Positions 2,776 through 11,589 of a stretch of 64,000 nt of DNA are shown in pieces; position 1 is the first letter of the stretch; every line of letters begins with the position of its first letter. The notes beneath the pieces are model-generated. The model was not told the origin of the DNA. It saw nothing but the letters and a program-made list of their open reading frames with translations, and did no database searches. Source of the DNA: Victivallales bacterium (lineage in GTDB: Bacteria; Verrucomicrobiota; Lentisphaeria; Victivallales; GWF2-38-69); NCBI GenBank assembly GCA_965228125.1, contig OZ245791.1:385596-449595 (forward strand), read 5' to 3'. The position numbers and the translations under genes were made by a program.

Positions 2776-3264
2776 ATGTTTACAAAAGCCACAACTTTCA
2801 ATGATTTTAATCTGATTGAGTCTCTCGCCAGAGAGATATGGACAGAACATTACACTCCTATTATAGGCAAGCCTCAGGTTAACTATATGCTAATGAAGTA
2901 TAGTTCGGCAAAATACATGTCAGAGCAAACAAAAGATCCAAACTGCCATTACTACATTATAAAAGACAGCAAAGACCCCATAGGGTACATCTCTATCACA
3001 TTCAAAAATAATGACTTATTCCTAAATAAATTTTATGTAATATCATCAGAACGCGGTAGAGGTTTCGGAAGAATGGCGATAAATTTTATTGAAAGTCTAG
3101 CCAGAGGAAAAGGTTTGGAGAAAATCACTCTGAGAGTCAACAAACTTAATAAAGATACCATAGATAAATATGAGAAGTTGGGATTTCTTAAAGTTGAATC
3201 CCTAGTCCAGGACATTGGTAATGGCTATGTTATGGATGACTACAAAATGGAAAAACTTTTATAG
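2776..3264 (+). CDS. GNAT family N-acetyltransferase
   Basis: 162 aa. Acetyl-CoA pocket pattern RGRGFGRMAINFIE (R/Q-x-x-G-x-G/A). Confidence 0.7.
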   Translation: MFTKATTFNDFNLIESLAREIWTEHYTPIIGKPQVNYMLMKYSSAKYMSEQTKDPNCHYYIIKDSKDPIGYISITFKNNDLFLNKFYVISSERGRGFGRMAINFIESLARGKGLEKITLRVNKLNKDTIDKYEKLGFLKVESLVQDIGNGYVMDDYKMEKLL

Positions 3265-3282
3265 CCATCCATTCTTAGAACT

Positions 3283-4689
3283 TTAGAAATTGGATCTGTA
3301 CTTATAATAATCTATTTTGGTTCTTCTCGATGTCTTTTCAATAATCTTCTTTGTAAAGGCGTTAGCTCTATGAAAAATATCCTTTTCGTCAATGCTTGTG
3401 AGTTTTCCATTCTCTACAACAACATTGCCGTTTACAATAGTATAATCGGTTCTCATTCCAGCGCCGCAAAATACAATTGCAGACATCGGATCTGACATTG
3501 CTCCTGCGAAGTCTAATCTCTCCAAATTAAATATAGCTATATCGGCCGCCTGCCCTGCTTTTATTGAACCAATCTTAGGGTTATTGAACACCCTGCTTCC
3601 TCCACTGGTTGCAATATACAAGGCCTTCTGAGGCGTCATTCTCTCTTCTGAAGAACCGATTCTATTTATAAGCATGGCAAGCTGTATTTCCCTGACAAAA
3701 TTTCCGGCATCATTGCTTGCGCTTCCATCAACAGCAAGGCTGACCTTCACGCCTGCATCAATCATGTCAGGAACACGGCATATGCCTGATCCAAGCCTCA
3801 TATTTGACGCAGGACAATGTGCTATACCTGTTCCGGTTTTTGCCAGAACTTTGATTTCTTCATCGTTAAAGTGGATCCCGTGCGCATAAAACACGTCATT
3901 TCCGATCCATCCGCAATCGTCCATATATTCCAAAGGCCGCTTGTTAAACATCCTAAGACAGTATTCTTCTTCATCCTTGGTTTCGCAAAGATGGGTATGC
4001 ATCAGTACGCCCATTTTTCTGGCATACTTAGCTGTGTCCTTCAAAATATCCGTTGTTACTGAAAAAGGAGAACATGGAGCAAGAATGATCTTGTTCATCG
4101 CAAAAGGATCTACATCGTGATATTTTTTGATAATCCTGTCGCAGTCTTTCAGTATCTCTTCAGGAGACTGGACTACAGTATCGGGAGGAAGTCCGCCATT
4201 TGATTTGCCCCTTGTCATACTACCTCTGCAAGGATAGAATCTCATCCCCATTTTATTCGCTATATCTATTTCAATGTCAAGAATTTCATTAGAAGTTCCC
4301 TTTGGGTAAACATAATAATGGTCGGTGCTTGTAGTACAACCCGAGAGAAGAAGTTCTCCTACAGCTATCTTTGTACTTAGCTCTACGAATTCTTCATTCA
4401 ATTCCGTCCAGATTTCATAGAGAAGTACCAGCCAATCGAAAAGTTTTACGCTTTGTATGGCAGGAATATTCCTTGTTAATGTCTGATAGAAATGGTGGTG
4501 CGTATTGATGAATCCCGGATAAACCACTTTATTGCTTCCATCAATGACTCTTGCCCCTGTCGGAACAGCAATATCTTTTCCTATTTCAGCTATTTTATTT
4601 CCTTCTATTCTGAGATCTACTCCGGTAAGAACCGTGAACTTTTCATCCATCGTAACAAGATTCCGGATATTTTTAATCAGAATAGACAT
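3283..4689 (-). CDS. Amidohydrolase of the ATZ/TRZ (chlorohydrolase / 8-oxoguanine-deaminase-like) group
   Basis: FINTHHHFYQTLTR metal-binding HxH motif, HTHLCET and AVDGSASND motifs. I prefer the ATG at 4689 (MSILIKN), preceded by AGGGGAGGG, over the track start at 4731. Confidence 0.8.
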   Translation of the reverse strand: MSILIKNIRNLVTMDEKFTVLTGVDLRIEGNKIAEIGKDIAVPTGARVIDGSNKVVYPGFINTHHHFYQTLTRNIPAIQSVKLFDWLVLLYEIWTELNEEFVELSTKIAVGELLLSGCTTSTDHYYVYPKGTSNEILDIEIDIANKMGMRFYPCRGSMTRGKSNGGLPPDTVVQSPEEILKDCDRIIKKYHDVDPFAMNKIILAPCSPFSVTTDILKDTAKYARKMGVLMHTHLCETKDEEEYCLRMFNKRPLEYMDDCGWIGNDVFYAHGIHFNDEEIKVLAKTGTGIAHCPASNMRLGSGICRVPDMIDAGVKVSLAVDGSASNDAGNFVREIQLAMLINRIGSSEERMTPQKALYIATSGGSRVFNNPKIGSIKAGQAADIAIFNLERLDFAGAMSDPMSAIVFCGAGMRTDYTIVNGNVVVENGKLTSIDEKDIFHRANAFTKKIIEKTSRRTKIDYYKYRSNF

Positions 4690-4771
4690 AGACCCTCCCC
4701 TTTTTTCTTCATGCTTTTCATGTTCATTCATCCTGCTTCTTTAAATGGAAGTATATCTTTAAAATGAATAT

Positions 4772-4796
4772 AAAAAAGCTCGGGGCCGAACTTTTA
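4772..4796 (-). terminator. Possible intrinsic terminator downstream of intI
   Basis: The minus strand reads AAAAGTTCGGCCCCGAGCTTTTTT: a short GC stem followed by a T-run, about 140 nt after the intI stop. Confidence 0.35.
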
Positions 4797-4935
4797 AAAT
4801 AATTCAGTCTTACATTGAATTTGATAGAATGAGCCAAAACCGTAACATCCGCGGCGAGGCAATGTTAACGTAAAAGAGGATATATTATCGTGCTATAAAT
4901 TGTTTAGCTGCTTTTAAATATGGGAGGTTTTGGCA

Positions 4936-6177
4936 TTATGCCACATCCAATGGGCTTTTTACCCCCAACTTGTTCCGCTTTGCGATATGTGTGTATATCA
5001 TTGTTGTCTGAACATTGGAATGCCCCAGCAGTTCCTGGATTGTCCTGATGTCATACCCTGCTTCAAGAAGATGCGTGGCAAAACTATGCCTGAAAGTATG
5101 AACTGAAGCCTTTTTGATAATTCCTGCATTATCCACAGCTCTCTTAATCTGTTTTTGCAAAGTAATAGGCTGTACATGATGTCTTCTTACTATAGCCGTT
5201 CTGGGATCGATGCTCAGGTTACTTGATGGGAACAGCCAGAACCATTTCCATTCTTTTCCAGCATTTGGATATTTTCTATCAAGGCCTTCCGGCAGTTTTA
5301 CTCCTTCAATATTGTTTGCCCTGTCATTATCATAAACATGCTTTGTTTCTGCGATATGCGCCTGCAGATTATTAATAATAGAATCAGGCAGAAGGGTTTC
5401 CCTGTCTTTCTCTCCTTTGCCTCCTCTTACAGATATTACACGCCGTTCGAAATCAACATCCTGAATTCTAAGCCTTATACATTCCGCAAGCCTCAACCCT
5501 CCTCCATATATTATCTGAGTCATCAGTTTATAAACACCTTTAAGGTTGCCGATTACTTTCAGACACTCATCTGAGGTCATGACAACCGGAATCTTTTCCC
5601 CTTTTTTTGCCCTTACCGTTTCCGATAAATCTCCGGGACTTTTATGCAGTACGTTTTTATAAACAAAAAGCAAAGAGTTGAAAGCCTGATTCTGTGATGA
5701 TGCCGACCTCTGCCTGCCAACAGCAAGACTGGAAATAAAATCCCTTATATCTTTCTGCTCGATTTTATCCACAGGCATGCCTTTTAAAAATTCATGAAAC
5801 TTTCCTAGCCAGCCCAAATATATTTTCTCCGTGGAATATGACAGATGTTTCAACCTTAGGACATTCTTTGTTTCATTGTAAAGCCTCAACCAGTCTTCAC
5901 TGTAAGAGCCGGCAGCATGATTAGCAAAACTGTTTTTCATGCTCTGAAAATAAAAATAATATCGTAAAGTGTCATCTGCCTGTTTTACCTGCCATTCCTC
6001 ATATCTCAAACTCAATTTTCCTAAAAACTGTTTAGTATGCTCAGCCTTCATTTCAAGGAGGTTCTCATTGCAGTATTTTACATATTCGCTCAGCCAGAAA
6101 ATATAATACTTTACATAATCTTTCCTGACACCGCATTTCAAAACCAGAAAATCGTTAAAATCTGTATCTTTATTCAT
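4936..6177 (-). CDS. intI: Integron integrase
   Basis: 413 aa. Tyrosine-recombinase boxes GGLRLAECIRLR, HTFRHSFATHLL and LGHSNVQTTMIYTH. IntI-specific insertion LPEGLDRKYPNAGKEWKWFWLFPS...IDPRTAIVRRHH. C-terminal GVKSPLD. Confidence 0.9.
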   Translation of the reverse strand: MNKDTDFNDFLVLKCGVRKDYVKYYIFWLSEYVKYCNENLLEMKAEHTKQFLGKLSLRYEEWQVKQADDTLRYYFYFQSMKNSFANHAAGSYSEDWLRLYNETKNVLRLKHLSYSTEKIYLGWLGKFHEFLKGMPVDKIEQKDIRDFISSLAVGRQRSASSQNQAFNSLLFVYKNVLHKSPGDLSETVRAKKGEKIPVVMTSDECLKVIGNLKGVYKLMTQIIYGGGLRLAECIRLRIQDVDFERRVISVRGGKGEKDRETLLPDSIINNLQAHIAETKHVYDNDRANNIEGVKLPEGLDRKYPNAGKEWKWFWLFPSSNLSIDPRTAIVRRHHVQPITLQKQIKRAVDNAGIIKKASVHTFRHSFATHLLEAGYDIRTIQELLGHSNVQTTMIYTHIAKRNKLGVKSPLDVA

Positions 6178-6293: not shown

Positions 6294-6321
6294 TTGAAAA
6301 TCTTATTAAAAGAAATATAAT
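6294..6321 (+). promoter_or_regulatory. Candidate cassette promoter (Pc-like)
   Basis: TTGAAA (6294-6299), 16-nt spacer, TATAAT (6316-6321), pointing into the cassette array from the intI-attI spacer. The AT-rich background raises the chance of a random match. Confidence 0.35.
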
Positions 6322-6378
6322 GAGGCTATCAATCCTTCCACAGGAGAAATTAATACATATATAGAATTAATGTTAGAG
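6322..6378 (+). other. Candidate attI region with crossover box GTTAGAG
   Basis: AATGTTAGAG at 6369-6378 resembles the right ends of the array's attC sites (AATGTTAGC, AATGTTAAAT, TATGTTACC). It lies between intI and the first cassette ORF. Confidence 0.4.
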
Positions 6379-6402
6379 AGAAATAATAAAAAGGGCAAAC
6401 TT

Positions 6403-7533
6403 ATGACTTTAATTTCAGGTTTCAGTAAAAACTATTGCCCGATTATTTTGGGAGATTTATTAATTTCAAATAATGATAGTAAAGAGCAATTAATCACTCT
6501 CCCAACAATTGGAAAAATTTCAAAGCAAGATTTTTCTAGATGTAGTTACTCGCCATGTGGATTTTCACAGAAAATAAACCTACTTAGTCCCAAATTAGCC
6601 TTAGGTTGGGCAGGAAGCAAAATCCATGCAAAAACATTTATGGATGAATTAATCACCTTAGGTGTACATGATGATCCTTCCCATCAAGCAATAAATGATA
6701 TCTACAATAATATAGTGACTAATCCTAATGATTTATCAATAATTGGTATTTATAGAAACAATAGTGAAATAAGAATTTTTGATTTTAATGCTTGGCCAAC
6801 CGACTCTAACTCTAATTTTGAATATTTTAAGTCTGCAGGTTCAGGTTATGGAACTTTGTTAGATATTACTGAAATAAATGATTTTAATCTGAATGTGACT
6901 TCTGGAAAAATCAATAAACTAGAAATAGGAATTGCAACTGCTGTTAATATAATTACGGCTTTATTAAGTGAAGAATTACTAACACAGTCTTCAATTCAAA
7001 ATTTATTTGGTGCTGGTTATGAGTTAGTTCATCCTTATAAATCGATTTTAAAAAAATTTGATGATTTAACTTACTTATTTTGGTCTATAGAAGAGTTTGA
7101 AATAAATAATTGGCGACTTCAATCGTCTCCTTTTCTTGTTTCTAAATATTCGTACCACAATGATATACTAGTAATTAGAGCTATGCATATCAAACAAAAT
7201 GATAATATTAATTCCTGTAAAATTGAGAAAGATGAATTACATATTGTATCTCCAATATATGGGACATTTAATGCTGATAAGTTAATTGGTTTTGCTCCTC
7301 AAACACTAAATTCAAAAATGATATGCAATGTTTTTTTATATAAAACAGTTAATAATGAAGTTGGAACATTTGCTGAGTTTGGCAAATATAATACAGAATC
7401 TCCACCTGTAATATTCAAAAATGAATTTACTAAAAATGAAGGAATAGATATTAATACTAATTTCATAAAAAAAGTTTTATTAAAATTTAACTCTAAATTC
7501 TTAAAAGAAGGAAAAAAGAACTCTAACAAGTAG
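6403..7533 (+). CDS. Cassette 1: orphan protein with N-terminal proteasome/HslV-like Ntn-hydrolase signature and an unknown C-terminal domain
   Basis: The long ORF is certain. Start chosen at ATG 6403 (MTLISGF) because the track start at 6370 spans the putative attI crossover. Motifs: Met-Thr start, LGD 16 residues later, QKI...LGWAGS, SAGSGYG. Confidence 0.6.
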   Translation: MTLISGFSKNYCPIILGDLLISNNDSKEQLITLPTIGKISKQDFSRCSYSPCGFSQKINLLSPKLALGWAGSKIHAKTFMDELITLGVHDDPSHQAINDIYNNIVTNPNDLSIIGIYRNNSEIRIFDFNAWPTDSNSNFEYFKSAGSGYGTLLDITEINDFNLNVTSGKINKLEIGIATAVNIITALLSEELLTQSSIQNLFGAGYELVHPYKSILKKFDDLTYLFWSIEEFEINNWRLQSSPFLVSKYSYHNDILVIRAMHIKQNDNINSCKIEKDELHIVSPIYGTFNADKLIGFAPQTLNSKMICNVFLYKTVNNEVGTFAEFGKYNTESPPVIFKNEFTKNEGIDINTNFIKKVLLKFNSKFLKEGKKNSNK

Positions 7534-7591
7534 ATGCACTTAATATTTTCTTGCTCCGCTGCGAAAATATAAGTGATCATTAATGTTAGCT
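7521..7591 (+). repeat. attC site 1
   Basis: CTCTAAC over the last codons; CACTTAATATTTTC / GAAAATATAAGTG inverted arms with one unpaired A; ends GTTAGCT. Confidence 0.7.
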
Positions 7592-7675
7592 TGAAAAGAA
7601 ATTGATAAAATAGAGATCATCCAGTATAATTATATCAGAAACTGAATCCAAATATAAAAAGGAAAGGTTACAGAA

Positions 7676-7897
7676 ATGAGCATAACACTTCCATTAGATA
7701 AAATGACTGTTTTAGAAAAAATCCAGACTATGGAATCTCTATGGGATGATTTGTGCCATCATAACTCAAAGGACATTTCTTCCCCTGCCTGGCATAAGGA
7801 AATTCTCTCTGAAAGAGAAAAAAGTATAAAAACAGGGAAATCTTCATTTATTGATTGGGAACAAGCTAAGAAAGAAATCCGAGATGCCATAAAATGA
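7676..7897 (+). CDS. Cassette 2: addiction-module antitoxin (TIGR02574-like)
   Basis: 73 aa. LEKIQTMESLWDDL...SPAWHKEILSERE pattern of the putative addiction module component family. ATGA overlap with the toxin. Confidence 0.75.
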   Translation: MSITLPLDKMTVLEKIQTMESLWDDLCHHNSKDISSPAWHKEILSEREKSIKTGKSSFIDWEQAKKEIRDAIK

Positions 7898-8190
7898 GAA
7901 TTCAAATCCTTGATTCGGCAAAGCAAGATTTGATTGATGGCTATTCCTTCTACGAAAAACAATCTTACTATCTGGGAAACTATTTCCTTGATTCCCTCTA
8001 TTCTGATATAGACTCTTTATTGATATACAATGGGATTCAAGAAAAACATTTTGACTATTTCAGAGCATTATCCGTTAAATTCCCATTTGCTATTTATTAC
8101 AGAATCGAAGATAGCATTATTAGAGTTTACGCTGTTTTAGATTGCCGTAAAGAACCAGCTTGGATAAGAAGTAAATTAAAAATTTTGTAG
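7894..8190 (+). CDS. Cassette 2: RelE/ParE-family toxin
   Basis: 98 aa. C-terminal FPFAIYYRIEDSIIRVYAVLDCRKEP pattern typical of ParE/RelE toxins. Coupled to the upstream antitoxin. Confidence 0.75.
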   Translation: MRIQILDSAKQDLIDGYSFYEKQSYYLGNYFLDSLYSDIDSLLIYNGIQEKHFDYFRALSVKFPFAIYYRIEDSIIRVYAVLDCRKEPAWIRSKLKIL

Positions 8191-8262
8191 AGCTAACCAA
8201 TCATTCCACTTAATCTGGAAAACGCTCCGCTTTTTTCCAGATAAGTGATTTCATTGTTATAA
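8191..8262 (+). repeat. attC site 2
   Basis: AGCTAAC directly after the stop; CACTTAATCTGGAAAA / TTTTCCAGATAAGTG arms with an extra A; ends GTTATAA. Confidence 0.7.
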
Positions 8263-8283
8263 GAAAAGAAAATAGAGCGACAA

Positions 8284-8748
8284 ATGAAAATATTTCAATT
8301 ATGTGACAAACCTGAAATGGTTAAATATATTGCTGAATATTGCTACAAAGAATGGGGATACAAAAAATCAAATAACAGTATAGAGAAAACTATAGAGCAA
8401 ATAAATAAAAGAGTCTATAATAAAAAACCACCAATAACCTTAGTTGCCATAGAAAATGATAAATATATTGGATCAGTTTCTCTAAAAATCAGAGAAATGA
8501 GCATATATCCTCAAAAACAATACTGGTTTGGTGATCTTTTTATTGTTCCAGAGAAAAGGAAAATGGGAATTGGTAGTAAACTTGTAAAAGCAATTGAAGA
8601 GCTTGCAATATCTATGGGAATAACTGAACTTAATTTATATACTCCAGACCAAGAAAAATTATATTTTAGTTTGGGGTGGAATACTGATGAAATTGTTCAA
8701 TACGAGAATTCTCAAGTCGTAGTAATGTCAAAAAAATTGAATTTATAA
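8284..8748 (+). CDS. Cassette 3: GNAT family N-acetyltransferase
   Basis: 154 aa. RKMGIGSKLVKAIEE acetyl-CoA motif. Confidence 0.7.
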   Translation: MKIFQLCDKPEMVKYIAEYCYKEWGYKKSNNSIEKTIEQINKRVYNKKPPITLVAIENDKYIGSVSLKIREMSIYPQKQYWFGDLFIVPEKRKMGIGSKLVKAIEELAISMGITELNLYTPDQEKLYFSLGWNTDEIVQYENSQVVVMSKKLNL

Positions 8749-8815
8749 CCAGACATTTCTCTTAATATTTTTGGGCTCAGCCGCCCAAAAATATAAGAGA
8801 ATTCCAATGTTAAAT
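8743..8815 (+). repeat. attC site 3
   Basis: TTATAAC over the stop; TCTCTTAATATTTTTGGG / CCCAAAAATATAAGAGA arms with an extra A; ends GTTAAAT, a perfect GTTRRRY. Confidence 0.7.
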
Positions 8816-8817
8816 GA

Positions 8818-9147
8818 ATGAAAATAATCATGGAAGAATACATAAAAATTGGAAAATCAGTAATACAAAAATATTATGATTATTCTGTCAAAAATATGAT
8901 AGATGATGCTACAGAGTATTTCCCTACACTAAAAACAATAATCAATGGAATAGTTGAAAGCATTCCGAGCGCAAATGAAAAAAGTAAAATAAAAAAATAT
9001 CTTAGAAGTTTTTCAAAGGAACTTTATTTAGACATGTGGGTAAAACAAGCTCAAGAAGATGAAGATTTTCCTGACATAGAAGAAGAAAGAAAGATTGCAG
9101 ATAAAGAATTTGAAAAATTTTTTAATAGAAAAAAAGATTGGATTTAA
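8818..9147 (+). CDS. Cassette 4: hypothetical protein
   Basis: 109-aa ORF filling the cassette. Acidic C-terminal half (QAQEDEDFPDIEEERK). I recognise no family. Confidence 0.5.
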   Translation: MKIIMEEYIKIGKSVIQKYYDYSVKNMIDDATEYFPTLKTIINGIVESIPSANEKSKIKKYLRSFSKELYLDMWVKQAQEDEDFPDIEEERKIADKEFEKFFNRKKDWI

Positions 9148-9270
9148 CGAGGTCGCTTCTCCTAACAGGCGAATATCCGGGGCGATTTTAGCATAAAACA
9201 GAAAGGATAAAGTTCTCTTGAGGAGTCAAAGTTTACTCCCATTCGCCTGTACGAGAGCTTTATGTTACCA
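9142..9270 (+). repeat. attC site 4 (long form)
   Basis: ATTTAAC (perfect RYYYAAC) over the stop; GCTTCTCCTAACAGGCGAAT / ATTCGCCTGTACGAGAGC arms about 60 nt apart; ends GTTACCA. Confidence 0.65.
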
Positions 9271-9344
9271 AAAAAGAAAACATTAAGCGTTGAAGATAGC
9301 AACTATATTGCGTATTATATTTAGTACATAATATGGAGGTAAAT

Positions 9345-9623
9345 ATGAAACGCATTGTATTGGATCAAGATATTCACTCAGTTTCCGACTTCAGAGCTCA
9401 CGCTAATTTTTACATGAAACAGATAAAACAAACGGCACGCCCATTAGTTCTTACTCAAAACGGAAAAAGTTCAGCCGTTGTTTTAGATGTAACAGAGTAT
9501 GAAAATCTACTTGAAGAACTTGAATTGGCCAGAGAAGTTCGACAAGCTCGGAATGAAATTAGAAATGGTGAAGTTTTTACTCATGCCGATGTAAAAGAAA
9601 AATTCTCAAAGAAATTCAACTAA
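9345..9623 (+). CDS. Cassette 5: Phd/YefM-family antitoxin
   Basis: SVSDFRAHANFYMKQIKQTARPLVLTQNGKSSAVVLDVTEYENLLEELE is the Phd/YefM pattern. I prefer the ATG at 9345, after GGAGGT. The stop overlaps the toxin start. Confidence 0.8.
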   Translation: MKRIVLDQDIHSVSDFRAHANFYMKQIKQTARPLVLTQNGKSSAVVLDVTEYENLLEELELAREVRQARNEIRNGEVFTHADVKEKFSKKFN

Positions 9624-9916
9624 TGAAAATTATCTGGTCAAAAACTGCTTCGATTAAGGCAGATGAAATATCCGATTACATTGCTAAAGACAGTATTAAT
9701 GAAGCAAGAAAATGGATATCTCAATTGCTCTCAGAAGTTGAAAGACTTGAAACTTTTCCAGAACTAGGGAGAATTGTGCCAAATTTAAATGATAATAGCC
9801 TAAGAGAAATAATCTTTGGAAATTATAGAGTTATATATGAAGTCAAAAATGACTCTATAGAGATACTGACATTCTGGCATTCTAGGAGATTACTAAATAA
9901 AGAAAATTTAAAATGA
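9623..9916 (+). CDS. Cassette 5: RelE/ParE-family toxin
   Basis: 97 aa. NYRVIYEVKNDSIEILTFWHSRR C-terminal pattern. Coupled to the Phd-like gene. Confidence 0.8.
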   Translation: MKIIWSKTASIKADEISDYIAKDSINEARKWISQLLSEVERLETFPELGRIVPNLNDNSLREIIFGNYRVIYEVKNDSIEILTFWHSRRLLNKENLK

Positions 9917-9985
9917 TAATCAGACAGTTCACTTGATCTGAAAATCGCTCCGCTTTTTTCCAGATAAGTGATTTCATTGTTATGG
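9914..9985 (+). repeat. attC site 5
   Basis: Degenerate left box TGATAAT over the stop; CACTTGATCTGAAAA / TTTTCCAGATAAGTG arms; ends GTTATGG. The right-hand 38 nt are identical to attC 2. Confidence 0.6.
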
Positions 9986-10048
9986 AAGATGAAATTGAAT
10001 ATTCTATCGAAATAAATATAATATCCATTATTAAAGATGGAGGAAAAA

Positions 10049-10261
10049 ATGCTTACTCAAGAAATAAAAAAAGAAATATTGGGTTTAAATTCTTTAGATA
10101 AAATCCATTTGGCTGAAATGATTTTTGATAGCTTGGATAAACCAGATTCAGAAATTGAAAAAATTTGGATAAATGAATCAGAGAAACGTTATAAGGCATA
10201 CAAACAAAATAAAATTCAAGGTATTTTTTTGAGTGAGATAAAAGAGAAATATGAAAAATGA
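10049..10261 (+). CDS. Cassette 6: addiction-module antitoxin (TIGR02574-like)
   Basis: LNSLDKIHLAEMIFDSLDKPDSEIEKIWINESEKRYKAY pattern. ATG at 10049 after GGAGGA. ATGA overlap with the toxin. Confidence 0.7.
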   Translation: MLTQEIKKEILGLNSLDKIHLAEMIFDSLDKPDSEIEKIWINESEKRYKAYKQNKIQGIFLSEIKEKYEK

Positions 10262-10551
10262 ATATTATTCTCCTTCCTCCATCTGATAAAGAACTTGATG
10301 AAGCTATCGACTATTATAATGACCAACAGACAGATTTAGGAAATAGATTTTATAAAGAATTTATTAGAGCAACTGAGCTAATAGACAGATCCCCTAAAAC
10401 CTGGAAAAAAGTAGGCAAATGTACCCATAAGATAAATATCAAAAGATTTCCGTATCTTGTTTTGTATGTTATTGATGGAAATGAAATACTCATTACTTGC
10501 ATTGCGCACCAACACAGAAGTCCTGATTATTATATTGAAAAAATATATTAA
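10258..10551 (+). CDS. Cassette 6: RelE/ParE-family toxin
   Basis: 97 aa. FPYLVLYVIDGNEILITCIAHQHRSP C-terminal pattern. Confidence 0.75.
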   Translation: MNIILLPPSDKELDEAIDYYNDQQTDLGNRFYKEFIRATELIDRSPKTWKKVGKCTHKINIKRFPYLVLYVIDGNEILITCIAHQHRSPDYYIEKIY

Positions 10552-10623
10552 TCATAACGAAATCGCTTCTCCTAACAGCTATTACGCTTCGCTCTATAGC
10601 TGTAGGAGAGCTTTTTGTTAGCT
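10552..10623 (+). repeat. attC site 6
   Basis: TCATAAC after the stop; GCTTCTCCTAACAGCTAT / ATAGCTGTAGGAGAGC arms with bulges; ends GTTAGCT. The left arm is shared with attC 4. Confidence 0.7.
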
Positions 10624-10699
10624 TGATTGAAAATTGAATAGACAATCATAATATGATATTTTTTGATAAATGCTTATTCTAAAACATATGAGGTATAAT

Positions 10700-11078
10700 A
10701 TGAGCATTACTTTATCAATAGATAAAATGTCTACTAAAGACCGTATTCAGGCAATGGAAGATTTATGGGATGCATTAACTCATGAGAAAAATGAAATAGA
10801 ATCTCCTTCATGGCACGAGGATATATTAAATTCAAGAAGAAAAAGAGGAATGGTTGTGAGATTACTTCTTTGACTCTATTATTTCTGACTTGGATTCATT
10901 AAGAATTTATGCCGGTATTCATACAAAACATTATGGTTACCATAGAATGATGTCCAAAAGATTTCCCTTTGCAATTTACTATGATTTTTTTCAAGAAGTA
11001 GCAGTTGTTATTGCGGTTCTGGATATGAGACGTAAACCTTCATGGATACAAGAGAAATTAAAAAATAGAAAAAGCTAA
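10700..11078 (+). pseudogene. Cassette 7: decayed antitoxin/toxin pair, paralog of cassette 2, with an internal deletion
   Basis: MSITLSIDKMSTKDRIQAMEDLWDAL..SPSWHEDILNSRRK matches 7676..7897 and then breaks off. The toxin frame resumes as DYFFDSIISDLDSLRIYAGI..FPFAIYYDF..VLDMRRKPSWIQEKL (matching 7894..8190 from about residue 29), behind an in-frame TGA and with no start codon. Confidence 0.75.
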
Positions 11079-11098
11079 CTAAATCATTTCAGTTAGTA
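11073..11098 (+). repeat. Terminal minimal attC-like remnant
   Basis: AGCTAAC-taaatcatttca-GTTAGTA: only the outer boxes remain. It overlaps the stop of the convergent DUF2062 gene. Confidence 0.35.
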
Positions 11099-11589
11099 TT
11101 TTTCGATCTGCCGATTTTACGTTGCTTTCTATAAATACGAATCAGGTGAGCCGAAATAAAATAAGCTGGAATAGCCATAATCAATCCCAAAATAGGCCCC
11201 CCCAGCATAAAGGATATAAAAAGATTCCATCCCAATCCAGTAAGCGAACTAAAGTCAAAAGAATAAATGACTTTTTCTATAGCTGACTGTATTTGGATAA
11301 AAGTAATAGGAATGCCAAGAATTTTCGCCCCTATAAGGCATGCCACAGGATATAAAATCGGCGTAGTGTAAGGATTGGAGAAAAAAGTAAAAAAAACAGC
11401 CATTCCCCTATGAGCTTTAAATATAAAAGCAAGGGGGACAACTACAATAACCTGTCCAATCGGAATCGCTACACTCATAAAAAAACCTATAGCTATTCCC
11501 ATAGCCACACTATGAACTGTTCCTTTGGAATTGACAAGCTTAATATAATAGTACTTGTAAGCTCTCCTGAATTTTTTCGAAAGCATCAA
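11089..11589 (-). CDS. DUF2062-family membrane protein
   Basis: 166 aa, 4 predicted TM. SVAMGIAIGFFMSVAIPIGQ...FFSNPYTTPILYP pattern. Confidence 0.7.
   Translation of the reverse strand: MMLSKKFRRAYKYYYIKLVNSKGTVHSVAMGIAIGFFMSVAIPIGQVIVVVPLAFIFKAHRGMAVFFTFFSNPYTTPILYPVACLIGAKILGIPITFIQIQSAIEKVIYSFDFSSLTGLGWNLFISFMLGGPILGLIMAIPAYFISAHLIRIYRKQRKIGRSKNTN

What the first reader, a model, noticed from the sequence alone, without database searches (positions are those of the whole stretch)
6373..7591. First (promoter-proximal) cassette encodes an orphan protein with a proteasome/HslV-like Ntn-hydrolase signature
Seen:
- The putative attI crossover GTTAGAG (6372) cuts through the track start codon, so the likely start is ATG 6403.
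- That start gives Met-Thr-Leu-Ile-Ser-Gly. With Thr as residue 1, an Asp falls at position 17 (LGD).
- A Lys (QKI) lies exactly 14 residues before an A-G-S motif (LALGWAGS).
- An A-G-S-G-Y-G motif follows about 75 residues later.

Established knowledge: proteasome beta/HslV-type Ntn hydrolases use Thr1, Asp17, Lys33, Gly47 and a G-S-G near residue 129.

Inference: this is an N-terminal Ntn-protease-like domain of about 200 aa, with an insertion of about 23 aa after Asp17. It is fused to a C-terminal domain of about 170 aa that I cannot place.

The gene occupies the best-expressed cassette position. Integron cassettes have been reported to carry compact single-gene phage-defence functions, so a cassette-borne self-compartmentalised-protease relative would be unusual.
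Basis: inference. Interest (0 to 1): 0.65.

Follow-up and report, generated by a model that had tools for sequence, protein, structure and literature searches.

The report
Cassette-borne solitary proteasome-like threonine hydrolase
The first gene cassette of this integron encodes a member of a large, unnamed family of stand-alone proteasome-type enzymes whose catalytic threonine is their very first residue; about half of the relatives examined sit beside restriction-modification, toxin-antitoxin or prophage genes, but its target is unknown.

Summary
From ATG 6403 the ORF reads Met-Thr. With Thr as residue 1, Asp is residue 17, Lys56 lies 14 residues before a Gly, and a G-S-G loop follows 76 residues after that Gly.

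The interpretation also holds. The AlphaFold model (pLDDT 81, pTM 0.82) gives 688 Foldseek matches in the PDB, and all 50 listed are 20S proteasome subunits. A profile of 134 homologues reaches proteasome alpha-7 by sequence (E 2e-4), in register at the Lys and G-S-G motifs. Of 152 relatives with an intact N-terminus, 143 start Met/Val/Leu-Thr or Met-Ser. The other 9 have an upstream gene call; 7 of them carry Met-Thr and one Leu-Thr at the aligned place.

The protein is not an orphan: at least 871 clusters at 50% identity match, none named. A roughly 30-residue insertion lies before the Lys strand, the site of the Connectase insertion. The C-terminal beta domain (about 157 aa) matches nothing in the PDB or BFVD.

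No ATPase or other conserved partner was found in about 20 loci. Neighbours are often type I restriction-modification genes (once inside the operon), defence candidates, toxin-antitoxin pairs or prophage genes.

It is most likely an ATPase-independent, site-specific Thr1 hydrolase used in conflicts between mobile elements and phages. The defence role is inferred, not shown.

The parts
4936..6177 (-). Integron integrase gene (413 aa), divergent from the cassette array
   Evidence: TIGR02249 integron integrase 401.8 bits (cut-off 265); Pfam Phage_integrase and Phage_int_SAM_4
6294..6321 (+). Sigma-70-like promoter candidate (TTGAAA-16-TATAAT, 11/12) facing the cassettes; a possible Pc
   Evidence: This is a consensus match only; the total number of matches in this AT-rich region is not above the shuffled expectation
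6372..6378 (+). Putative attI crossover GTTAGAG; its G is the last base of the upstream ATG 6370
   Evidence: Sequence; same G|TTA form as the R' ends of the attC sites
6403..7533 (+). CDS of the proteasome-like Thr1 hydrolase (376 aa plus stop); true start at ATG 6403, not 6370
   Evidence: ORF. Relatives start at the aligned Met-Thr. The public 387-aa call P0001 starts at 6370
6406..6408 (+). Thr2 codon, predicted N-terminal nucleophile (Thr1 once the initiator Met is removed)
   Evidence: At least 90% conserved in 134 sequences; 143 of 152 N-termini are start+Thr/Ser
6403..7059 (+). Proteasome-beta/HslV-type Ntn domain (residues 1-219)
   Evidence: The order of secondary-structure elements in the model follows the proteasome fold. 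Foldseek PDB matches are all proteasome subunits. Profile-to-sequence matches reach alpha-7, beta-1, beta-3 and HslV
6454..6456 (+). Asp18 codon, counterpart of proteasome Asp17
   Evidence: Invariant in 134 sequences. It lies on the second strand of the N-terminal hairpin. The correspondence is by position, not by a superposition I could inspect
6466..6558 (+). Family-specific insertion (residues 22-52) between the N-terminal hairpin and the Lys strand, carrying invariant Pro34 and conserved Thr35/Gly37
   Evidence: pLDDT below 50; P34 invariant. It occupies the same site as the Connectase and PMI-5/6 insertions described in PMC8665760
6571..6573 (+). Lys57 codon, counterpart of proteasome Lys33
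   Evidence: At least 90% conserved. It aligns with the conserved Lys of proteasome alpha-7 in the HMM alignment
6613..6615 (+). Gly71 codon, counterpart of Gly47 (oxyanion hole)
   Evidence: At least 90% conserved. W-A-G aligns with F-A-G of alpha-7. It ends strand 65-71, just before helix 73-85
6838..6846 (+). Gly146-Ser147-Gly148, counterpart of the proteasome Gly128-Ser129-Gly130 loop
   Evidence: G146 invariant and G148 at least 90% conserved. It aligns with G-R-G of alpha-7
7060..7530 (+). C-terminal beta-rich domain (residues ~220-376: nine strands and a long terminal helix) of unknown fold
   Evidence: Separate model with pLDDT 84.6. No Foldseek match in the PDB (best E 0.32) or BFVD (best E 0.044). 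Conserved K218, W227, Y251, L256, P284
7521..7591 (+). attC site closing the cassette (R'' TCTAAC 7522, R' GTTAGC 7585); it overlaps the last codons of the CDS
   Evidence: Five further attC sites of the same build follow (R' ends at 8256, 8809, about 9268, 9979 and 10617), and a possible short or truncated one begins near 11074

Best explanation
**What it is.** Cassette 1 encodes a two-domain enzyme. The N-terminal ~220 residues are a proteasome-beta/HslV-type Ntn hydrolase domain.

**How it probably works.**
1. Translation starts at ATG 6403.
2. Methionine aminopeptidase removes the initiator Met, because the next residue is the small Thr. This step rests on established knowledge and was not shown here.
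3. Removal exposes Thr1, whose side-chain oxygen is the nucleophile and whose free amino group acts as the general base.
4. Lys57, Asp18, Gly71 and the G146-S147-G148 loop supply the rest of the proteasome active site. They correspond to Lys33, Asp17, Gly47 and Gly128-Ser129-Gly130.
5. A flexible ~30-residue insertion with invariant Pro34 lies where Connectase carries its substrate-clamping insertion. It probably forms a lid that restricts access to the active site (inferred).
6. The C-terminal beta domain is of unknown fold and is confidently packed on the catalytic domain. It probably recognises the substrate or a trigger (inferred).

**Role.** The gene is always solitary and has no AAA+ unfoldase next to it. 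I therefore propose an ATPase-independent, site-specific peptide-bond hydrolase rather than a bulk degradation chamber. Its repeated placement in an integron cassette, in or beside type I restriction-modification operons, next to defence-candidate and toxin-antitoxin genes and in prophage ends suggests a role in conflict between mobile elements and phages. This biological role is the least certain step.
For: **Fold and sequence**
- Fold: model with pLDDT 81 and pTM 0.82. Foldseek finds 688 PDB chains at E<=1e-3, and the 50 listed are all proteasome subunits.
- Sequence: the 134-sequence profile hits proteasome alpha-7 at E 1.9e-4, HslV at 0.034 and beta-3 at 0.37, in register at Q-K...W-A-G and G-S-G.
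- With the insertion cut out, beta-1 matches from profile position 15 (E 0.034).
- 6 of 134 members give weak PF00227 hits.

**Catalytic residues**
- T2, D18, K57, G71, G146 and G148 are conserved at 20-57% identity.
- 143 of 152 intact N-termini are start+Thr/Ser.

**Solitary gene**
- No conserved neighbour and no AAA+ gene in about 20 loci.

**Neighbourhood**
- Integron cassette among toxin-antitoxin cassettes.
- Inside an hsdM-x-hsdS-[member]-hsdR operon on Oscillatoria plasmid pOSC7112.01.
- Convergent with a type I restriction-modification operon in L032.
- Behind a Dam-type methylase and a 645-aa unknown protein in L037.
- Next to PADLOC candidates PDC-M05A/B in L005 and near (one gene away from) PDC-S23 in L007; about 4 kb from a HamB-like helicase in L002.
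- Inside IMG/VR provirus calls: the Desulfosarcina widdelii Mu-like element, and L034 with two tandem copies.
Against: - No activity, N-terminal processing or oligomeric state was or could be measured.
- Sequence similarity to the proteasome family is marginal. No member reaches the Pfam threshold. T. acidophilum beta and E. coli HslV are not matched by the profile.
- The protein matches no PADLOC model and has no relative in 50,697 phage records.
- About half of the loci show only housekeeping neighbours.
- The locus sample is small and biased towards long contigs.
- PDC families are candidates, not proven defence systems.
- Toxin-antitoxin cassettes are common in chromosomal integrons whatever their neighbours do.
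Confidence: 0.6

Rival explanations
1. It is a Connectase-like, sequence-specific transpeptidase or protein ligase. The same Thr1 chemistry forms an acyl-enzyme, which is resolved by a protein amine rather than by water.
For: The gene is solitary and encodes an extra C-terminal domain. The insertion lies at the site that gives Connectase its specificity, according to PMC8665760. No unfoldase partner was found.
Against: The model keeps helices H1 and H2 (73-85, 94-104), which Connectase lacks. No sequence match to Connectase chains appeared in three profile searches of the PDB. The family is bacterial, and no MtrA-like substrate gene is nearby.
Confidence: 0.15
2. It is a ring-forming, self-compartmentalised protease. 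It would assemble like HslV, BPH or Anbu and degrade unfolded proteins.
For: All four flanking helices of the proteasome fold, which mediate ring contacts, are present in the model. The best structural matches are ring subunits.
Against: No AAA+ partner was found in any locus. The ~30-residue insertion next to the active site and the 157-residue C-terminal domain are the kinds of additions that PMC8665760 regards as likely to hinder multi-layered rings. Oligomeric state could not be predicted here.
Confidence: 0.15
3. It is a small-molecule or peptide amidase that gives resistance or detoxification, as many integron cassettes do and as other Ntn hydrolases (penicillin and acyl-homoserine-lactone acylases) do.
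For: It occupies the first cassette position of an integron, with a GNAT acetyltransferase two cassettes downstream. Ntn hydrolases as a class include such amidases (general knowledge).
Against: The structural matches are to the proteasome branch only. The protein has no signal peptide and no internal autoprocessing site; its N-terminus is itself the catalytic strand. Relatives sit with restriction-modification and prophage genes rather than resistance genes.
Confidence: 0.08
4. It is a catalytically dead scaffold, like proteasome alpha subunits, that only binds a partner.
For: The best sequence-level matches are to inactive alpha-7 subunits.
Against: Alpha subunits lack Thr1 and carry an N-terminal extension. 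Here Thr directly follows the start codon in 140 of 152 relatives. Asp18 is invariant, and Lys57 and Gly71 are at least 90% conserved, across 20-57% identity. That pattern indicates selection on the active site.
Confidence: 0.03

Closest known systems
HslV (ClpQ), the bacterial proteasome-beta homologue
   Same: Both have the proteasome-type Ntn fold. In both, Thr follows the initiator Met directly with no propeptide. Lys and Gly lie on consecutive strands, and a G-S-G loop is present. The family profile reaches an HslV chain at E 0.034 with Lys57 aligned near Lys33.
   Different: HslV is about 175 aa with a single domain, forms double hexamers and is encoded next to its AAA+ partner hslU. This protein is 376 aa, with a ~30-residue insertion and an extra C-terminal domain, and has no ATPase neighbour. 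E. coli HslV itself is not matched by the profile.
Connectase (archaeal monomeric proteasome homologue; PMC7980362, PMC8665760)
   Same: Both are solitary, with a Thr/Ser1 nucleophile directly after Met. Both carry an insertion between the N-terminal hairpin and the Lys strand, and both have an additional C-terminal domain.
   Different: Connectase lacks helices H1 and H2, which this model has. Connectase is confined to methanogens and acts on MtrA. No sequence match was found.
The 22 uncharacterised proteasome-homologue families of Fuchs, Alva and Lupas 2021 (PMC8665760), especially DAH, PMI-5 and PMI-6
   Same: They are the same kind of thing: distant prokaryotic and phage-associated proteasome homologues with conserved Thr1/Asp17/Lys33/Gly47 plus insertions or C-terminal domains. 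DAH has a C-terminal domain matching no known structure and occurs in cyanobacteria, proteobacteria and phages. PMI-5 and PMI-6 have an insertion at the same site.
   Different: None of them was reported from integron cassettes or restriction-modification operons, and none has a known function.
20S proteasome beta subunits
   Same: They are the best structural matches (Foldseek E 2e-6, TM-score on the target up to 0.65). The Lys-to-Gly spacing of 14 is identical, as is the position of Asp at residue 17.
   Different: Proteasome beta subunits have autocleaved propeptides, form heptameric rings with alpha subunits and have no C-terminal domain. The Pfam Proteasome model is not matched at threshold.

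Membership tests
Proteasome-like Ntn hydrolases (proteasome beta / HslV superfamily) | Proteasome-type alpha-beta-beta-alpha sandwich, with the element order hairpin, two strands, two helices, three strands, G-S-G, two helices, two strands | tested here: met
   The model's secondary-structure order follows this pattern. Foldseek finds 688 PDB matches at E<=1e-3, and the top 50 are all proteasome subunits.
Proteasome-like Ntn hydrolases (proteasome beta / HslV superfamily) | Thr (or Ser) as the first residue of the mature chain | tested here: met
   Met-Thr at 6403-6408. Of 152 relatives with intact N-termini, 143 are start+Thr/Ser. Actual removal of Met was not testable.
Proteasome-like Ntn hydrolases (proteasome beta / HslV superfamily) | Asp17, Lys33, Gly47 and the Gly-Ser-Gly loop | tested here: met
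   D18 and G146 are invariant; K57, G71 and G148 are at least 90% conserved. Lys, Gly and G-x-G align with proteasome alpha-7. Asp is matched by position only.
Proteasome-like Ntn hydrolases (proteasome beta / HslV superfamily) | Match to Pfam PF00227 at the gathering score | tested here: not met
   The window protein gives no hit at E<=1. 6 of 134 relatives give weak hits, best E 0.006. It is therefore a remote relative at superfamily level and not a member of the curated family.
Proteasome-like Ntn hydrolases (proteasome beta / HslV superfamily) | Peptide-bond hydrolysis through Thr1 | not testable with these tools
   Needs biochemistry.
HslV | Encoded with, and dependent on, the AAA+ unfoldase HslU | tested here: not met
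   No AAA+ gene lies next to the gene in the window or in about 20 related loci.
HslV | Single domain of about 175 aa forming a double hexamer | tested here: not met
   The protein is 376 aa with two domains. Oligomeric state was not testable.
Connectase | Absence of helices H1 and H2 | tested here: not met
   The model has helices at 73-85 and 94-104 with pLDDT above 90. The feature is defined in PMC8665760.
Connectase | Insertion covering the active site, located before the Lys33 strand | tested here: inconclusive
   An insertion is present at residues 22-52 with invariant Pro34. It is modelled at pLDDT below 50, so its position over the active site is unknown.
Families of Fuchs et al. 2021 (DAH, PMI-5, PMI-6 and others) | Sequence clustering with the published representatives (for example WP_085249540.1, WP_179179973.1, WP_103790100.1) | not testable with these tools
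   The accessions are named in the paper, but the sequences cannot be fetched and the supplement holds none.
Integron gene cassette | A promoterless ORF bounded by the attI/attC crossover (G|TT) and a 3' attC with paired R''/L''-L'/R', next to intI | tested here: met
   IntI meets the TIGR02249 cut-off. GTTAGAG lies at 6372. The attC spans 7521-7591, and five more attC sites of the same build follow, plus a possible truncated one near 11074. The array has 29-33% G+C against 38-41% in the flanks.
Known anti-phage defence proteins (PADLOC-DB 2.0) | HMM match to a catalogued defence or candidate protein | tested here: not met
   No family matched at E<=1.

The most novel reading that the evidence does not exclude
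This family is a single-gene anti-phage or anti-plasmid immune protein. An infection cue, sensed by the unclassified C-terminal domain or by the Pro34 lid, would unleash a proteasome-type Thr1 protease on a specific host or invader protein. That would be the first proteasome-family enzyme found in bacterial immunity. It would also be a 23rd proteasome-homologue family, outside those catalogued in 2021.
Probability: 0.25. Interest if true: 0.8.

Novelty: new variant of a known kind. Interest (0 to 1): 0.55.

Why it matters
- **Proteasome biology.** Proteasome-type Thr1 enzymes are known in bacteria mainly as ATPase-driven degradation chambers (HslV, the 20S proteasome) and in archaea as one odd ligase (Connectase). 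A 2021 survey showed many more distant homologues exist, none with a known function.
- **What this adds.** This cassette belongs to a large family (at least 871 clusters at 50% identity) that no curated library names. The family combines an intact proteasome active site with a lid-like insertion and a domain of unrecognised fold. It is carried by integrons, plasmids and prophages, and often sits next to restriction-modification and defence-candidate genes.
- **Testable handle.** That gives a function hypothesis for one class of these homologues: one 1.1-kb gene and one T2A control.
- **If it is a defence gene.** It would add threonine-protease chemistry to the known repertoire of bacterial immunity.
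- **Annotation.** The public gene call starts 33 nt too early, at an ATG created by the attI junction. This hides the N-terminal Thr from anyone reading the annotation.

Tried and rejected
**Searches that found nothing**
- Single-sequence searches of Pfam, NCBIfam, PADLOC and PDB sequences.
- The profile of 28 close relatives against the PDB gave only chance hits. The 134-sequence profile was needed.
- hhalign of the family profile against E. coli HslV aligned only 22 columns around W-A-G.
- A local hmmsearch against T. acidophilum beta and E. coli HslV was not significant.
- Cutting the insertion out of the profile did not extend the alpha-7 alignment to the N-terminus. It did bring in beta-1 from profile position 15.

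- The second profile search of the 5.8-billion-protein set added few distant members and no names.
- Cluster look-ups gave no organism for the window or for distant members.

**Ideas rejected**
- A conserved partner gene: 149 neighbouring ORFs from 18 loci share no family beyond the two restriction-modification loci.
- A phage origin: there was no hit in 50,697 phage records.
- A literature link between proteasome homologues and defence: none found.
Full report
**1. Setting**

The window carries a small chromosomal-type integron.
- ORF 4936..6177 on the minus strand (413 aa) matches the integron-integrase model TIGR02249 at 401.8 bits, against a curated cut-off of 265. It also has the two Pfam tyrosine-recombinase domains.
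- Downstream on the plus strand I found six attC sites of the same build, each with R'' ...TAAC, paired inner arms and R' GTTA.... A possible seventh, short or truncated, begins near 11074.
- The R' ends lie at 7585, 8256, 8809, about 9268, 9979 and 10617. The array therefore runs from about 6373 to about 11100.
- The array has 29-33% G+C, against 38-41% in the flanks.
- The other cassettes carry three toxin-antitoxin pairs (Unstab_antitox or Phd with ParE-type toxins), a GNAT acetyltransferase, one unknown ORF and a decayed toxin-antitoxin copy.
- A sigma-70-like site (TTGAAA-16-TATAAT, 11/12) at 6294-6321 faces the cassettes. It is only a consensus match.

**2. The observation**

- The longest ORF starts at ATG 6370. 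The G of that codon is the first base of GTTAGAG (6372), which has the same G|TTA form as the attC R' ends. That ATG is therefore assembled at the attI junction and does not belong to the cassette.
- The next in-frame ATG (6403) gives M-T-L-I-S-G-F.
- With Thr as residue 1, Asp is residue 17 and Lys56 (Q-K-I) lies exactly 14 residues before the Gly of W-A-G-S.
- A-G-S-G-Y-G follows, with its Ser 76 residues after that Gly.
- The Asp-to-Lys distance is 39 residues, against 16 in the proteasome. This confirms an insertion of 23.

**3. Not an orphan, and the N-terminus is the point**

- A word-indexed search found about 28 full-length relatives at 45-53% identity, all unnamed.
- An exhaustive HMMER scan of 1.84 billion cluster representatives found 871 clusters at E<=1e-3 and 402 at E<=1e-10. 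Nearly all are about 365 aa and align from residue 1.
- Of 152 relatives whose N-terminal region is intact, 140 begin with a start codon followed by Thr, and 3 begin Met-Ser.
- The other 9 are longer gene calls; 7 of them contain Met-Thr and one Leu-Thr at the aligned position. The window's own public 387-aa call (P0001) is of the same kind.
- In an alignment of 134 full-length members at 20-57% identity to the window protein, D18, P34, G146 and G203 are invariant.
- In the same alignment M1, T2, G17, L20, S22, Q56, K57, W69, G71, A76, G148, E191, G205, E207, K218, W227, Y251, L256 and P284 are at least 90% conserved.

**4. Fold**

- An AlphaFold2 model built on the 28-sequence alignment has mean pLDDT 81 and pTM 0.82.
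- Its N-terminal half has the element order of a proteasome beta subunit:
  - a hairpin (strands 4-9 and 12-21);
  - a low-confidence stretch (residues 22-52);
  - two strands (54-62 and 65-71);
  - two helices (73-85 and 94-104);
  - three strands (111-118, 123-128 and 141-145);
  - the G-S-G loop;
  - two helices (149-158 and 172-193);
  - two strands (206-212 and 215-218).
- Foldseek against the PDB returned 688 chains at E<=1e-3. The 50 listed are all 20S proteasome subunits, with best E 2e-6, probability 1.00, about 237 aligned columns and TM-score on the target of 0.45-0.65.

**5. Sequence-level link**

- The single sequence and the 28-sequence profile hit nothing in Pfam, NCBIfam, PADLOC or the PDB.
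- The 134-sequence profile does reach the proteasome family: alpha-7 at E 1.9e-4, a kinetoplastid HslV at 0.034 and beta-3 at 0.37.
- That alignment is in register. Q-K aligns with R-K, W-A-G-S-x-x-x-A with F-A-G-L-T-A-D-A, and G-S-G with G-R-G.
- This places Lys57 on Lys33, Gly71 on Gly47 and Ala76 on Ala52. It also agrees with Gly71 ending a strand just before the first helix in the model.
- With the insertion and the C-terminal domain cut out, beta-1 matches from profile position 15, just before the Gly-Asp pair (profile positions 16-17) (E 0.034).
- 6 of 134 members give weak PF00227 hits, best E 0.006.
Neither is matched significantly.
- The family is thus a remote relative, recognisable by fold and by a deep profile only.

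**6. What is special about the family**

- **The insertion.** Residues 22-52 lie between the N-terminal hairpin and the Lys strand. They carry the invariant Pro34 and the conserved Thr35 and Gly37, and are modelled at pLDDT below 50. According to Fuchs, Alva and Lupas (PMC8665760), this is the site of the two-helix insertion that covers the active site of Connectase and gives it specificity. PMI-5 and PMI-6 also have an insertion there.
- **The C-terminal domain.** Residues ~220-376 form nine strands and a long helix. Modelled alone, the domain has pLDDT 84.6. It has no Foldseek match in the PDB (best E 0.32, TM below 0.25) or in BFVD (best E 0.044). The pTM of 0.82 for the whole chain suggests it is packed in a fixed way on the catalytic domain.
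- **Family-only motifs.** F/Y-G-G/A-G-Y-E (202-207) and Glu191 at the end of the fourth helix have no counterpart I can name. Glu191 might stand in for Asp166, but that is inference only.

**7. Neighbourhood**

The gene is always solitary. No AAA+ gene and no other conserved partner appears in the window or in about 20 distinct related loci. A scan of 149 neighbouring ORFs from 18 loci found no shared family beyond those in the two restriction-modification loci.

Mobile or defence-type company is frequent:
- this integron cassette;
- a true family member (WP_015211639.1, MTLVVAL...) inside an hsdM-x-hsdS-[member]-hsdR-SprT operon on the conjugative Oscillatoria nigro-viridis plasmid pOSC7112.01, beside ThiF and DUF6527 genes;
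- a member convergent with a type I restriction-modification operon in L032;
- a member behind a Dam-type methylase and a 645-aa unknown protein in L037;
- two Omnitrophota loci (L005, L007) with the gene at the same site upstream of a miaB-like gene, but with different PADLOC candidates in the variable stretch upstream of it (PDC-M05A/B adjacent in L005; PDC-S23 one gene away in L007);
- a locus (L002) with a serine recombinase, a caspase/HamB-like helicase fusion and a zeta toxin;
- an ankyrin PDC-M72A neighbour in L004;
- the Desulfosarcina widdelii copy, which lies on the repressor side of a Mu-like prophage and within an IMG/VR provirus call;
- another provirus contig (L034) with two tandem paralogues next to an RHS protein.

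Roughly half of the loci show only housekeeping neighbours. There is no relative in 50,697 phage genome records.

The sample is small and favours long contigs. I therefore treat the link to conflict systems as suggestive. Two or three direct adjacencies to restriction-modification systems in about 20 loci are, however, far more than I would expect by chance; that judgement is my own rough estimate and was not computed.

**8. Mechanism proposed**

- **Shown:** the fold, the conserved active-site set, Thr directly after the start codon, the absence of a partner, and the insertion and extra domain.
- **From established knowledge:**
  - Methionine aminopeptidase removes Met before Thr.
  - In proteasome-type Ntn hydrolases the free amino group and side-chain oxygen of Thr1 carry out catalysis, assisted by Lys33 and Asp17, with Gly47 forming the oxyanion hole.
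- **Inferred:**
  - The insertion acts as a lid or specificity clamp.
  - The C-terminal domain binds a substrate or trigger.
  - The enzyme cuts (or, less likely, ligates) a particular protein rather than degrading unfolded chains.
  - It serves in conflict between mobile elements and phages.

**9. Comparison with what is known**

- It works like HslV or a proteasome beta subunit at the active site, and resembles Connectase in being solitary with an insertion at the same site.
- It is not HslV: there is no HslU partner, and it is twice the size.
- It is not Connectase: it has helices H1 and H2, is bacterial, and shows no sequence match.
- It does not meet the Pfam Proteasome threshold.
- The 2021 survey already established that many distant proteasome homologues exist, some with insertions, unknown C-terminal domains and phage links.
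- By description, DAH and PMI-5/6 come closest. I could not obtain their sequences, so whether this family is one of the 22 or a further one stays open.
- I found no paper that ties any proteasome homologue to integron cassettes, restriction-modification operons or phage defence.
- Integron cassettes have been reported to encode phage-defence systems (bioRxiv 10.1101/2024.07.02.601719). I saw only the start of that abstract.

**10. Verdict**

- 'Orphan' and 'self-compartmentalised' are not supported.
- The defence role is plausible but unproven.
- I rate it a new variant of a known kind, with moderate interest.

Noticed in passing
window 6370-6402: The public gene call (P0001, 387 aa) starts at ATG 6370, whose G is the attI crossover base. 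The 11 extra residues (MLERNNKKGKL) are in frame and would bury the catalytic Thr. This junction-created start codon is probably an annotation artefact. If it were used, it would produce a blocked 'pro-form'.
   Followed up: partly
window 7587-11100: Cassettes 2, 5 and 6 are toxin-antitoxin pairs (Unstab_antitox or Phd with ParE-type toxins) and cassette 3 is a GNAT acetyltransferase. Cassette 4 is a 109-aa unknown ORF. Cassette 7 (67 and 62 aa) looks like a decayed copy of the cassette-2 type pair.
   Followed up: partly
window 8190-8260 and 9916-9985: The attC sites of cassettes 2 and 5 share an identical 3' half (CGCTCCGCTTTTTTCCAGATAAGTGATTTCATTGTTAT), although the cassettes carry different toxin-antitoxin genes.
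   Followed up: no
window 7602-7630: A second 11/12 sigma-70-like site (TTGATA-17-TATAAT) lies just inside cassette 2, upstream of its antitoxin gene. This fits toxin-antitoxin cassettes carrying their own promoter.
   Followed up: no
L017 (NC_019763.1, Oscillatoria nigro-viridis plasmid pOSC7112.01) 1-12885: A distant family member sits between hsdS and hsdR of a type I restriction-modification operon, followed by a SprT-family metalloprotease. A ThiF-family adenylyltransferase plus a DUF6527 gene lie upstream, so the region looks like a plasmid defence island.
   Followed up: partly
L034 (IMGVR_UViG_2540341244_000004) 2838-5935: Two tandem paralogues of the family (365 aa each, both probably starting at a GTG-Thr) lie 0.9 kb apart on a predicted provirus contig, next to a 1348-aa RHS-repeat protein.
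   Followed up: no
L005 4840-7140 and L007 6217-9113: In two Omnitrophota genomes the family gene occupies the same site upstream of a miaB-like radical-SAM gene. The genes just upstream of it differ: PADLOC candidates PDC-M05A/B in one, and PDC-S23 plus DUF6448 in the other. The site behaves like a small variable islet.
   Followed up: partly
L002 1-1881: A 1009-aa protein combines a caspase-like Peptidase_C14 domain with a DEAD/HamB-like helicase. It lies 4 kb upstream of the family member, with HTH regulators and a large serine recombinase in between.
   Followed up: no
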